DNA of 64,000 nucleotides from the human T2T-CHM13v2.0 reference genome, Homo sapiens, in NCBI RefSeq assembly GCF_009914755.1, contig NC_060940.1. One strand, given 5' to 3'. The translations under genes were made by a program, and so were the position numbers. Shown in pieces: positions 32,551-36,475 of the stretch (the first letter of the stretch is position 1; each line of letters starts with the position of its first letter). The notes under the pieces were generated by a model. The model worked only from the letters and a program-made list of their open reading frames with translations, was not told the DNA's origin and searched no databases.

Positions 32551-32687
32551 GTATATGAGGGTGGGAGCAACGTGGACCAGTTTGTGACCCGCTTCCTCCT
32601 GAAGGAGACGGCCAATCAGATCCAGTCGCTGCTGAGCTCAGTGGAGAGTGCGGTGGAGGCCATCGAGGAACAGACCAGCCAGCTCCG
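32551..32687 (+). CDS. NECAB2: NECAB2 exon 6 ([27 protein letters not shown]...SQLR)
   Basis: cacag|GTA, CG|gtgagt; 137 nt; NECAB homology region. Confidence 0.96.
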
Positions 32688-33029
32688 GTGAGTCTCTGAG
32701 ACCCTGCAGGGTCCCATGGGGGTATGCCGTGCACGCGCACGTGCCCACCTGCTGCTTGGTGGGGATGTCTGTGTACCTAAGAGCTGGGTGACCTTGGGCA
32801 AGTTGCCACAGCTCTTTGTGCCTTTGGTGCTCCATTATGTAATATAGGCACAATTATATACCTAAAATCTCAGCCATTGCAAGGATTGAATGAGATAGTA
32901 AATGCTCAGGAGAATGCCTGGTGTACATATTTATTAATACAGTGAAGACACCATTTCCCAGACTCTAATTTGTTTTGCTGCATCCACATGCTAATTGTTT
33001 ATGCAGAACTATTCTGTTGTTTGGCCCAC

Positions 33030-34012
<983 letters not shown>

Positions 34013-34724
34013 CACTTTTGAAAATTAGAAAGCAGTTTAGGAAATGGCATATGGTTATAACTGCACTCTCGGCATCACATGCCGTAAGTGAAGTAACTGT
34101 AAAAATAAGCACCTGTCATTGTTTACGATCCAGCTTGAATCCTGAGGCTTGCCACCTCTCTGTTAAAAAGAGAGACTGGGGGGAAATCAGAGAGGTGTTG
34201 AAGACAGTAGTAGCAAGTTGAGAGTTTCTCAGGAGGACTGAAAGAGACGTGAAAGAGGAGTGTTTCTTTCTGGTCTTGTGTTAGGCCTTGTTTGTGTGCT
34301 TGGAACCATGGGAATGCATCTGGGGTCCCATCCTAGGTGGTGGCTGCTGTGTTAGGGGTGTGACCTGGTATTTAGAGAGGAGCGACATTCTCGTGGCTCA
34401 GCAGTCCCATCTCCCGGGGAACACGAGCACCCGTCCCCCCCCCCACCTCCATTTGCTGTTTCAAATTGAGAAAAACCCTTCTTTGCTCAGTTCTTCCCAG
34501 AACAGCTGATGTGCTTGACACAGAAGAAAAAGAGAAAATGCAAACAGATGAGGGAAACAGCCAGGTGTCGGCACCCAAGCTCGATTGAGCCCTTAATTTT
34601 CCAGGCAGAGAGGTACCTCAGGACCAGGATATTGGTTTGCTGGGGGACTGGGGTTTGATCGTGTGTTTCTTCGTAGTTGAAGAGCTGGTCCTGATCAGAC
34701 ATGATTGTGAAGGTAACTCTGAGA

Positions 34725-34890
34725 CACTGTTTCCCAAATGAGTTTGATCTGAGCATTTGCGCTGAATCACCTGGGAAAATTAAAATACACATTCCTGGGC
34801 TCCTGGCCATACTCACTGGCTAGAATCCCTGGACTGGAGCCCAGAACTCTGCACATGTGGTCAGTCTTGTGATTCTTGGGTGCCCCAGAA
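34725..34890 (+). mobile_element. MER5-like hAT element
   Basis: gaatcacctggg..ttaaaatacacattcctgggc...gcccagaa motif. Confidence 0.6.
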
Positions 34891-35584
34891 TTAGCAGCCA
34901 TCGCTGTGAAAAAAGCTGACACTTAGATTTCCTGGGTTTTCCTGTTACTATCTTGATGAAAAACTTGCTGTTTTTCTCCTGCCGCAGAACAGATAGTATG
35001 GCTGCGCAGTTTTCAGGGCAGACTTCCCACACTGGGTCAGCTCCATCACGCGTCAGCAGTTACACCCACCTGCCCCCATGGTGGGGACCTTACTTGGGGA
35101 TGTTGTCAGACGGGGCAGCTTGTCGTGATACCTCTGTTCCACACATGCCCCTCCCTCGAACTTCCCCAAATCTCAGCTAGTTTGGCTCTAGGCTGTGGGT
35201 CCCTGAGGACTATCCTGTTTCCCAGCCCCAGGACAGTCTCCCAGGATGTCACCTCTAGCACAGGCTACTGGCTCAGACCCCACCACCCGGGAGCCCTGAG
35301 CAACCCGTCATGGTCTGAGGGATACATTTAATTTCCTGCTGGTTTATAGAGAAGCCATGATTGACACCATAAAGACTCTGCCAGCCTCTCCCCTCCCAAG
35401 GCGGGAGTCGAGTTTGCTCCCTCCGCAAGGGGGAGAGCCTGGCGGAGTGTTCAAGGTTCACAAGAGACAAATTCCAGAATGCACCAAGACCGCGATGCAC
35501 AGAGACCAAGCGGGTGTTGGGGCCGTGCACAGGGCACTCTGTGTGTCTTCTGGGGGAGTGTCTGTGTTTCTGTATGTCTGCCAG

Positions 35585-35671
35585 GAGCTTTTCAGCATCC
35601 TTTTGCATGGGAGGATTTGGTCATTCATTGAGCATTTTTGAGTCCCTACTATGTGCTGGACACAGTGCAAG
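35585..35671 (+). other. Candidate cryptic in-frame exon of NECAB2 (intron 6)
   Basis: ccag| acceptor, AAG|gtgagc donor, 87 nt, stop-free in phase 2, adjacent (TG)23. Confidence 0.55.
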
Positions 35672-35676
35672 GTGAG

Positions 35677-35677
<1 letters not shown>

Positions 35678-35724
<47 letters not shown>
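35678..35724 (+). repeat. (TG)23 microsatellite
   Basis: Perfect dinucleotide run. Confidence 0.98.
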
Positions 35725-35725
<1 letters not shown>

Positions 35726-36356
35726 TGCCTCTGCCTGTGGCTAGCTGTGCCTGTCAGGGCACGCAGGGGTGTGTATGCACATGAGTATGCACAGGAGAGG
35801 GGTGTCCAGGGCCGGGAGATGGGGCCAGGCCCAGGTCAGGATCACAGTTTCTGTCCTGTTACATCCCGACTGTCAGTGTCTCTTTAGGTCTCGCTTTTAT
35901 GTGTATGTGTTGGAGGGGGGTCTTGAAACCAGGTCCCCCACCCCAGAGGGCACCAAACATTAAATGGGCCTATCATGAGGGAGGGAGGGGGACTTGGTCA
36001 CTCCACAGCTTGGGCTCTACACGTGCCCGAAAGCTTCGAGCTGTTAGAGTGGGGGTGGGTCCCTGGCTCAGCCTCACTCTGGAACTGAATCTCTTGGGGA
36101 AAAGGCCTAGGCCGTGGGGTCCTAGAATGGAGCTGAATTCGAATCCCAGCTCTGCCCAGCTAGCTGCGTGGCCCTGGCTGAGTCACCTGCTTTAAGAACC
36201 TCATTTCCTCCTCTGTCAAAACAAAGGCCATGATGCAAGTTCTGTGCATGTGTGAGTCCACTGTCTTGCGTAATAAATGCCTGTGGAAGATGCTGGAAGT
36301 GGTAAGGGCCCTGAAGCCACCGCCATGGTCTGTGTGTGTTCCCATCCAAACTGCAG

Positions 36357-36475
36357 ACAGAACCACATCAAACCCAGCCACAGCGCGGCACAGACCTGGT
36401 GTGGAAGCCCCACTCCCGCCTCTGCCCCCAACCACAAGCTCATGGCTATGGAACAAGGCAAGACCCTTCCATCTG
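36357..36475 (+). CDS. NECAB2: NECAB2 exon 7 (QNHIKPSHS...KTLPS)
   Basis: ctgcag|A, G|gtgaga; 119 nt, phase 2 to 1. Confidence 0.92.

What the first reader, a model, noticed from the sequence alone, without database searches (positions are those of the whole stretch)
35585..35724. In-frame 87-nt cryptic exon in NECAB2 intron 6 abutting (UG)23: TDP-43-repressed cryptic exon architecture
Seen: a pyrimidine/UG-rich acceptor (tctgtgtttctgtatgtctgccag|35585), a strong donor AAG|GTGAGC at 35671/35672, and (TG)23 starting 6 nt into the intron. The exon is 87 nt. In the phase-2 frame of intron 6 it has no stop, inserting SFSASFCMGGFGHSLSIFESLLCAGHSAR after R199 (415-aa product, escapes NMD). Its 3' half resembles an antisense L2 3' end (exonisation). 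Established: TDP-43 binds UG repeats and represses adjacent cryptic exons; in-frame ones produce neo-peptides in ALS/FTD. Inference: a candidate loss-of-function biomarker in a neuronal gene, and repeat-length polymorphism could tune repression. It may already appear in published TDP-43 cryptic-exon lists; I cannot verify that.
Basis: partly seen in the sequence, partly recalled or inferred. Interest (0 to 1): 0.88.

Follow-up and report, generated by a model that had tools for sequence, protein, structure and literature searches.

The report
NECAB2 TDP-43 cryptic exon, already listed

Summary
Every sequence feature in the finding is present as described: acceptor ...CTGCCAG|G at 35585, donor AAG|GTGAGC at 35671/35672, an 87-nt interval, and a pure (TG)23 at 35678-35723. 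It is stop-free in the phase-2 frame of intron 6 and inserts 29 residues after R199, giving 415 aa.

The proposed test has already been done in print. Supplementary Data 1 of Brown et al. 2022 (PMC8891020; MAJIQ, CRISPRi TDP-43 knockdown in iPSC-derived i3Neurons, 4 controls and 3 knockdowns) has five NECAB2 rows.
- Junction chr16:83990630-83993528, 'novel_acceptor', cryptic_junction TRUE: PSI 0.001 to 0.287.
- Junction 83993614-83994302: PSI 0.001 to 0.415.
- Canonical junction: PSI 0.998 to 0.642.

By exon lengths and distances these are window 32687^35585 and 35671^36357. NECAB2 RNA level is unchanged (log2FC 0.02), which fits escape from NMD.

No main text in the held library names it.

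Still not shown: direct TDP-43 binding to the repeat, inclusion in patient tissue, the peptide itself, any effect of repeat length, and the MIR/L2 origin.

The parts
32551..32687 (+). NECAB2 exon 6 (137 nt), the upstream constitutive exon. It ends in phase 2 and is the source exon of the splicing event in the published table.
   Evidence: Hub annotation. Donor CCG|GTGAGT. Equals GRCh38 83990494-83990630, 137 nt.
35535..35584 (+). UG- and pyrimidine-rich acceptor region, ending in CAG.
   Evidence: 12 of 17 pyrimidines at positions -20 to -4, with C at -3. 7 TGTG/GTGT words in 50 nt, against a window 99th percentile of 6.
35585..35671 (+). 87-nt in-frame cryptic cassette exon that is included when TDP-43 is depleted.
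   Evidence: Sequence. Translation is stop-free. Equals GRCh38 83993528-83993614; junction PSI 0.001 to 0.287 on the 5' side and 0.001 to 0.415 on the 3' side.
35672..35677 (+). Intronic part of the donor, GTGAGC.
   Evidence: The 9-mer AAGGTGAGC matches 8 of 9 consensus positions, among the top 12 of 1,902 intronic GT sites in NECAB2. The same donor ends annotated RefSeq and GENCODE exons (hub table).
35678..35724 (+). (TG)23.5, read as (UG)n in the pre-mRNA. This is the presumed TDP-43 binding platform, starting at intron position +7.
   Evidence: TRF period 2, 23.5 copies, 100% matches. It is the only such repeat of 8 or more units in the window. Binding itself is inferred, not shown.
36357..36475 (+). 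NECAB2 exon 7 (119 nt), the downstream constitutive exon and the target exon of the second splicing event in the published table.
   Evidence: Hub annotation. Acceptor CTGCAG|ACA. Equals GRCh38 83994302-83994420.
33981..35671 (+). Annotated RefSeq exon of another NECAB2 transcript that ends at the same donor. GENCODE v31 has a shorter version, 35460-35671 by the coordinate offset.
   Evidence: Hub table. The exon 83993403-83993614 appears in the MAJIQ rows. Joined to exons 7-13, its longest ORF is 220 aa from ATG 35574, in the same frame as the cryptic exon, after 21 upstream ATGs.

Best explanation
Window 35585-35671 is a TDP-43-repressed cryptic cassette exon in NECAB2 intron 6.

In normal neurons the exon is skipped (PSI about 0.001). 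The likely reason is that TDP-43 coats the (UG)23 tract that begins 6 nt past the donor, and probably also the UG-rich stretch just before the acceptor. This would block U1 snRNP and exon definition at an otherwise strong 5' splice site.

When TDP-43 is depleted, the donor 35671 and the acceptor 35585 are used in about 30-40% of junction reads. The exon is 87 nt long and stop-free in frame, so the mRNA is not an NMD target. It should encode NECAB2 with 29 extra, rather hydrophobic residues after R199 (415 aa).

Shown: the sequence anatomy, the TDP-43 dependence of both junctions in one published data set, and the unchanged RNA level.
Inferred: direct binding of TDP-43 to this repeat, steric block as the mode of repression, both junctions lying on the same molecule, and translation of the insert.
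For: - Sequence anatomy and frame.
- Donor strength and rarity: 8 of 9 consensus matches, shared by 12 of 1,902 intronic GT sites.
- It is the only (TG) repeat of 8 or more units in the window, and the upstream flank is UG-rich above the 99th percentile.
- Brown et al. 2022, Supplementary Data 1 (supplement rows read) gives five NECAB2 rows:
  - 83990630-83993528, novel_acceptor, cryptic TRUE, PSI 0.001 to 0.287, P(change >10%) 0.9999992;
  - 83993614-83994302, PSI 0.001 to 0.415, P = 1;
  - the canonical junction, 0.998 to 0.642 in one event and 0.999 to 0.585 in the other;
  - intron retention, 0.001 to 0.068.
- The paper's definition of cryptic splicing, and the replicate numbers (4 controls, 3 knockdowns), come from passages read.
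- Coordinates match by distance: 137=137, 2898=2898, 87=87 and 119=119.
- NECAB2 RNA is unchanged: log2FC 0.023, padj 0.86.
- A 2026 review (PMC13343711; passages read) makes three relevant statements. TDP-43 sites are often close to the 3' end of cryptic exons. Binding close to splice sites represses them, for example by steric hindrance. Only about 3% of cryptic exons are in frame.
Against: - The support is one data set in one cell type, with 4 controls and 3 knockdowns.
- I saw no CLIP data for this site, so a direct action of TDP-43 is inferred.
- NECAB2 is absent from all 14 readable supplementary files of Ma et al. 2022, the UNC13A cryptic-exon study. Four PDFs there could not be read.
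- NECAB2 is absent from the single small supplement file held for each of three other papers, which is weak evidence.
- The two junction PSIs differ (0.287 and 0.415). Some use of the donor may therefore come from retained-intron or internally started transcripts rather than the cassette.
- Ribosome footprints on NECAB2 are few (baseMean 10.35, log2FC -0.72, p 0.20), so translation of the insert has no support.
- The main text of the Seddighi et al. preprint reports 65 cryptic peptides across 12 genes and does not name NECAB2.
Confidence: 0.85

Rival explanations
1. The exon depends on TDP-43 only indirectly. Knockdown would change another splicing regulator, or transcription through the intron, and the adjacent (UG)23 would be a bystander.
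For: No CLIP or binding data for this site were seen in any call. Intron retention of 32688-35459 also rises slightly, from 0.001 to 0.068, which could point to a broader change in how the intron is processed.
Against: A pure 46-nt UG tract begins 6 nt from the de-repressed donor, and the upstream flank is also UG-rich. A UG tract is the canonical high-affinity TDP-43 ligand (established knowledge). The position matches what the review describes for direct targets. The change is large and specific: PSI goes from 0.001 to 0.29-0.42 while the gene's RNA level is unchanged.
Confidence: 0.1
2. The signal mainly reflects an alternative transcript that starts or continues inside intron 6 (the annotated exons 33981-35671 and 35460-35671) and splices from donor 35671 to exon 7. 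On this reading it is not an 87-nt cassette in full-length mRNA.
For: The donor is annotated in RefSeq and GENCODE as the end of longer exons (hub table). PSI on the donor side (0.415) exceeds PSI on the acceptor side (0.287). Such a transcript has a 220-aa ORF from ATG 35574 in the same frame.
Against: The novel junction from the end of exon 6 to 35585 rises to PSI 0.287 with P 0.9999992, and only a cassette or an exon-6-linked form can produce it. In controls the donor junction is at PSI 0.001, so no constitutive internal transcript is active in these neurons. The internal leader carries 21 upstream ATGs.
Confidence: 0.15
3. The exon is a culture-model event only. It appears in NGN2 i3Neurons with near-complete TDP-43 knockdown but not at a detectable level in neurons of ALS/FTD patients, so it has no value as a biomarker.
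For: NECAB2 is not in the 14 readable supplementary files of Ma et al. 2022. No main text in the library names the event. The review notes that cryptic exons depend on cell type.
Against: Absence from short lists is weak evidence: four PDFs of Ma et al. were unreadable, and the other supplements held were tiny. The Seddighi preprint states that splicing changes in iNeurons predict those in patient tissue across numerous transcripts (passage read).
Confidence: 0.4

Closest known systems
In-frame TDP-43 cryptic exons that yield cryptic peptides (HDGFL2 intron 6, MYO18A, CAMK2B)
   Same: It is an intronic cassette silent in controls and included on TDP-43 knockdown in the same i3Neuron system. 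It is in frame, and the transcript level is kept.
   Different: For HDGFL2 and MYO18A the protein product was detected by MS or antibody, and cryptic HDGFL2 was measured in patient fluids. For NECAB2 no peptide evidence was seen. The 29-residue insert is a single tryptic peptide of about 3.0 kDa with GRAVY +0.61, two Cys and one Met, so it is a poorer analyte than the polar MYO18A insert described.
UNC13A and STMN2 cryptic exons
   Same: It comes from the same published screen and meets the same definition of cryptic splicing. UG-rich TDP-43 sites lie next to the exon.
   Different: Those events cut transcript and protein levels: Brown et al. report UNC13A as NMD-sensitive and STMN2 as not. 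The NECAB2 exon is in frame and the RNA level does not change. No risk variants are known to me at this site.
CFTR exon 9 (TG)m polymorphic tract (recalled, no call)
   Same: A pure UG repeat next to a splice site recruits TDP-43 and causes exon skipping. Repeat length there alters the degree of skipping.
   Different: In CFTR the repeat lies before the 3' splice site of a constitutive exon, and its length effect has been measured. Here the repeat follows the 5' splice site of a cryptic exon, and the only hint of length variation is a 2-nt difference between two assemblies.
Exonised antisense MIR / L2 3' end elements (recalled, no call)
   Same: The 3' half of the exon (about 35615-35671) resembles, from my recall, the antisense 3' end shared by MIR and L2. 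Exonisation of such elements has been reported.
   Different: This was not tested. No repeat-family library is on hand, NCBI's mask of stretches of 100 or more does not cover the exon (hub table), and blastn found no second copy in the window.

Membership tests
TDP-43-repressed cryptic exon | Near-zero inclusion in cells with normal TDP-43, and at least one splice junction that is not annotated. | tested here: met
   Control PSI is 0.001 for both junctions. The acceptor junction is 'novel_acceptor', unannotated in GENCODE v31, and the hub's RefSeq table has no exon starting at 35585. The donor junction is annotated.
TDP-43-repressed cryptic exon | Inclusion rises when TDP-43 is depleted. | tested here: met
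   In published MAJIQ rows, PSI goes from 0.001 to 0.287 and from 0.001 to 0.415, while the canonical junction falls from 0.998 to 0.642. This is one data set, with 4 controls and 3 knockdowns.
TDP-43-repressed cryptic exon | A UG-rich or (UG)n motif next to the exon. | tested here: met
   (TG)23.5 at 35678-35724, starting 6 nt after the donor. The 50 nt before the acceptor are UG-rich above the window's 99th percentile.
TDP-43-repressed cryptic exon | Direct TDP-43 binding at the site (CLIP), and loss of repression when the site is removed. | not testable with these tools
   No CLIP tracks or minigene data are on hand, and no paper found or 32 reports them for NECAB2.
TDP-43-repressed cryptic exon | Detected in patient tissue or nuclei that have lost TDP-43. 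| tested here: inconclusive
   NECAB2 is absent from the 14 readable supplementary files of Ma et al. 2022, where four PDFs were unreadable.
In-frame cryptic exon that yields a cryptic peptide | Length is a multiple of 3 and there is no stop in the host frame. | tested here: met
   87 nt, phase 2, no stops, 29 residues inserted.
In-frame cryptic exon that yields a cryptic peptide | The transcript is not degraded on inclusion. | tested here: met
   NECAB2 log2FC 0.023, padj 0.86, at about 30-40% inclusion.
In-frame cryptic exon that yields a cryptic peptide | The peptide or the larger protein is detected. | not tested
   No proteomic data are on hand.
Exonised antisense MIR/L2 element | Significant alignment to the repeat family consensus. 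| not testable with these tools
   No Dfam or RepeatMasker library is on hand, and consensus sequence from memory may not be used in a call. There is no paralogous copy in the window.

The most novel reading that the evidence does not exclude
The length of the (TG)n tract at the donor varies between people. CHM13 has 23 units. GRCh38 is 2 nt longer somewhere between the donor and exon 7, most simply 24 units. This length would set how much TDP-43 loss is needed to unmask the exon, as the (TG)m tract does for CFTR exon 9. NECAB2 cryptic-exon inclusion, and the 29-residue insert it encodes, would then be a genotype-dependent and NMD-resistant readout of early TDP-43 dysfunction in NECAB2-expressing neurons. 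The insert could also impair NECAB2 itself. NECAB2 protein was reported as reduced in ALS visual cortex in a 2026 preprint.
Probability: 0.15. Interest if true: 0.55.

Novelty: already known. Interest (0 to 1): 0.3.

Why it matters
In-frame TDP-43 cryptic exons are uncommon. A 2026 review puts them at about 3%, and one proteogenomic study found them in 27 of 154 cryptic-exon genes. They are the source of the cryptic-peptide biomarkers now pursued for ALS/FTD, such as HDGFL2.

This NECAB2 exon belongs to that small class and has a clear anatomy: a strong donor with (UG)23 six bases away. It could therefore serve as a further candidate marker, or as a simple model for how a repeat next to a donor silences it.

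Its value is limited in four ways:
- the event is already in a public table;
- the predicted peptide is hydrophobic and a single long tryptic fragment;
- NECAB2 is expressed in restricted sets of neurons (recalled);
- evidence from patient tissue is lacking.

It is also worth noting that a reader working from raw sequence alone predicted both junctions correctly to the base.

Tried and rejected
- Earlier findings of this scan were not open.
- Main-text searches found no paper that names this exon:
  - NECAB2 + 'cryptic exon' + TDP-43 gave one paper, which mentions NECAB2 only as a down-regulated protein.
  - NECAB2 + TDP-43 gave 8 papers; by their titles and abstract openings none concerns splicing of NECAB2, and apart from the preprint read they were not opened.
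  - NECAB2 + cryptic gave 5 papers, none relevant by title. I checked the eLife 2013 hit, which is about an eQTL.
  - NECAB2 + TARDBP gave 2 papers, neither relevant by title or abstract.
  - The four GRCh38 junction coordinates gave no papers.
- Supplements without NECAB2:
  - Ma 2022, all 14 readable files;
  - Irwin 2024, 1 file;
  - the FTLD-TDP frontal cortex paper of 2025, 1 file of 3,162 characters;
  - Sinha 2025, 1 file.
- Supplements I could not see, which may bear on the peptide and patient-tissue claims: the Seddighi preprint (closed), the Mehta 2023 review (closed), and the published Seddighi paper (not held).
- A search on UG repeats near 5' splice sites failed on term syntax and was not repeated.
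- blastn of 35540-35677 against the window found no second copy. The only hit below E = 0.01 was the UG-rich flank against the repeat itself, so the repeat-family origin could not be tested.
- The RNA fold of 35520-35800 is no more stable than shuffles: z = +1.57, with 190 of 200 shuffles folding at least as well. I dropped a structure-based mechanism.
- I rejected the idea that the AG..GT architecture alone is remarkable, because there are 11 crude look-alikes in the same gene's introns.

Full report
**1. The observation**

- The acceptor reads TGTTTCTGTATGTCTGCCAG|GAG, with the first exon base at 35585.
- The donor reads CAAG|GTGAGC, with the last exon base at 35671.
- The interval is 87 nt.
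- Tandem Repeats Finder reports a perfect TG repeat of 23.5 copies at 35678-35724. A regular expression gives (TG)23 at 35678-35723, starting after six intronic bases.

The frame also holds. The annotated coding sequence up to exon 6 is 596 nt, so intron 6 is phase 2. In that frame the 87 nt have no stop and add 29 residues after R199: the 28 residues kept as P0001 plus a junction-spanning R. This turns 386 aa into 415 aa. The alternative acceptor at 35596 would give 76 nt, a frameshift and an early stop.

**2. Is it more than chance?**

The bare AG..GT shape is not. I used a crude, transparent count: matches to the 9-position donor consensus (recalled), and pyrimidines at positions -20 to -4 of the acceptor.
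- The 32,535 nt of NECAB2 introns hold 11 comparable pseudo-exons.
- The donor is strong. It matches 8 of 9 positions, as do only 12 of 1,902 intronic GT sites. This is at least as good as all 12 annotated NECAB2 donors.
- The acceptor is middling: 12 of 17 pyrimidines, against 10-16 for the annotated acceptors.

Three things set this interval apart:
- It is the only one of the 11 that is both a multiple of three and stop-free.
- It abuts the only (TG)/(CA) repeat of 8 or more units in the whole 64-kb window.
- The 50 nt before its acceptor are also UG-rich, with 7 TGTG/GTGT words against a window 99th percentile of 6.

The hub's annotation already ends a RefSeq exon (33981-35671) at this donor, so the donor is a known splice site. 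Only the acceptor is new relative to the annotation.

**3. What it is: published data**

No main text in the held library names a NECAB2 cryptic exon. The junction coordinates occur in no main text either.

The supplements of Brown et al. 2022 (Nature 603:131, PMC8891020) do list it.
- The study used CRISPRi knockdown of TDP-43 in iPSC-derived cortical-like i3Neurons, with 4 controls and 3 knockdowns, and analysed splicing with MAJIQ on GRCh38. It reports 179 cryptic exons (passages read).
- It defines cryptic splicing as PSI below 5% in controls, a change above 10%, and a junction unannotated in GENCODE v31.

Supplementary Data 1 holds five NECAB2 rows.

From the source exon 83990494-83990630:

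| Junction | Category | PSI, control to knockdown | P(change >10%) |
|---|---|---|---|
| 83990630-83993528 | novel_acceptor, cryptic_junction TRUE | 0.001 to 0.287 | 0.9999992 |
| 83990630-83994302 | canonical | 0.998 to 0.642 | 1 |
| 83990631-83993402 | intron retention | 0.001 to 0.068 | 0.04 |

Into the target exon 83994302-83994420:

| Junction | Category | PSI, control to knockdown | P(change >10%) |
|---|---|---|---|
| 83990630-83994302 | canonical | 0.999 to 0.585 | 1 |
| 83993614-83994302 | annotated | 0.001 to 0.415 | 1 |

**4. Mapping to the window**

The window is from T2T-CHM13, so I mapped by distances.

| Interval | GRCh38 | Window |
|---|---|---|
| Exon 6 | 137 | 137 |
| End of exon 6 to the novel acceptor | 2898 | 2898 |
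| Novel acceptor to the annotated donor | 87 | 87 |
| Exon 7 | 119 | 119 |
| Donor to exon 7 | 688 | 686 |

The donor-to-exon-7 distance is 2 nt longer in GRCh38. The difference lies somewhere in 35672-36356. One TG unit of the repeat is the simplest reading, but I could not show this.

**5. Consequences for the transcript and protein**

NECAB2 is well expressed in these neurons and does not change on knockdown (baseMean 1049, log2FC 0.023, padj 0.86). At 30-40% inclusion, this is what an in-frame, NMD-immune exon predicts.

Ribosome profiling of NECAB2 is too thin to say anything (baseMean 10.35, log2FC -0.72, p 0.20).

The insert is a single tryptic peptide of 29 residues. It is about 3.0 kDa, with GRAVY +0.61, two Cys, one Met and no internal K or R. 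It would be a difficult MS analyte and is probably partly buried or aggregation-prone.

The insert falls between the end of exon 6 and the start of exon 7. The end of exon 6 is a helix-like heptad-rich stretch, and the start of exon 7 is rich in Pro, Ser and Ala. That this is a linker between the EF-hand and the C-terminal domain is my inference from composition and recall, not a test.

**6. Mechanism**

The best-supported reading has two steps.
- TDP-43 binds the (UG)23 tract at intron positions +7 to +52, and likely the UG-rich polypyrimidine region before the acceptor. This keeps U1 and exon definition away from an otherwise strong donor.
- Loss of TDP-43 frees the donor, and the upstream AG at 35584 is then used.

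A 2026 review states that TDP-43 sites are often close to the 3' end of cryptic exons. It also states that binding close to splice sites represses them, for example by steric hindrance (passages read).

Direct binding at this site is inferred; I saw no CLIP data. A predicted RNA fold of 35520-35800 is no more stable than shuffles (z +1.57), so I do not invoke structure.

**7. Rivals**

- An indirect effect of knockdown is possible but unlikely, given the position and purity of the repeat.
- Part of the donor-side signal may come from transcripts that retain or start in the intron. PSI is 0.415 on the donor side against 0.287 on the acceptor side. RefSeq and GENCODE annotate longer exons ending at this donor (hub table).
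  - The RefSeq form has a 220-aa ORF from ATG 35574, in the same frame as the cryptic exon, behind 21 upstream ATGs.
  - If that form is ever translated, the 'neo-peptide' would not be strictly disease-specific.
- Whether the exon appears in patients is open.
  - NECAB2 is absent from all 14 readable supplementary files of Ma et al. 2022 (four PDFs unreadable).
  - It is also absent from the small files held for three other papers.
  - The preprint's main text reports 27 of 154 cryptic-exon genes with in-frame insertions, and 65 cryptic peptides across 12 genes. It does not name NECAB2.

**8. Repeat origin**

No repeat library is on hand, and there is no second copy in the window. This stays a recalled resemblance.

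**9. Verdict**

- The exon is a member of the known class of TDP-43-repressed cryptic exons, in the uncommon in-frame subclass.
- It is already known at the level of a public data table, though apparently never discussed. Interest is therefore modest.
- What remains open and mildly interesting: whether the repeat binds TDP-43, whether its length varies and tunes repression, whether the exon appears in patient neurons, and whether the 415-aa protein is made.

Noticed in passing
window 35672-36356: The distance from the cryptic donor to exon 7 is 686 nt here (CHM13) but 688 nt in the GRCh38 coordinates of the published table. All other compared distances are identical. The simplest reading is one TG unit more in GRCh38, but the place of the difference was not shown.
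   Followed up: partly
window 33981-35671: The RefSeq alternative exon that ends at the same donor, joined to exons 7-13, has its longest ORF (220 aa) starting at ATG 35574. That is 11 nt before the cryptic acceptor and in the same frame, so it would share the 28-residue 'neo-peptide'. The ORF lies behind 21 upstream ATGs, and CpG observed/expected is at most 0.5 across 33400-36400, so there is no CpG-island promoter.
   Followed up: partly
window 32688-35459: The published table also shows a small rise in retention of the first part of intron 6 on TDP-43 knockdown (PSI 0.001 to 0.068, P(change >10%) 0.04).
   Followed up: no
window 33343-33441 and 33874-33893: There are low-complexity T-rich tracts, (TTTTTC)n-like and T20, inside and at the end of the long masked repeat 33026-33950, just before the start of the RefSeq alternative exon at 33981.
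   Followed up: no
window 35720-35797: Just after the TG tract lie short imperfect tandem units: period 16 at 35720-35754 and period 12 at 35773-35797 (GTATGCACAGGA). This extends the GU/GC-rich region downstream of the donor.
   Followed up: no
NECAB2 gene (literature): A 2026 bioRxiv preprint reports NECAB2 protein as down-regulated in ALS primary visual cortex proteomics (passage read). It makes no link to splicing.
   Followed up: no
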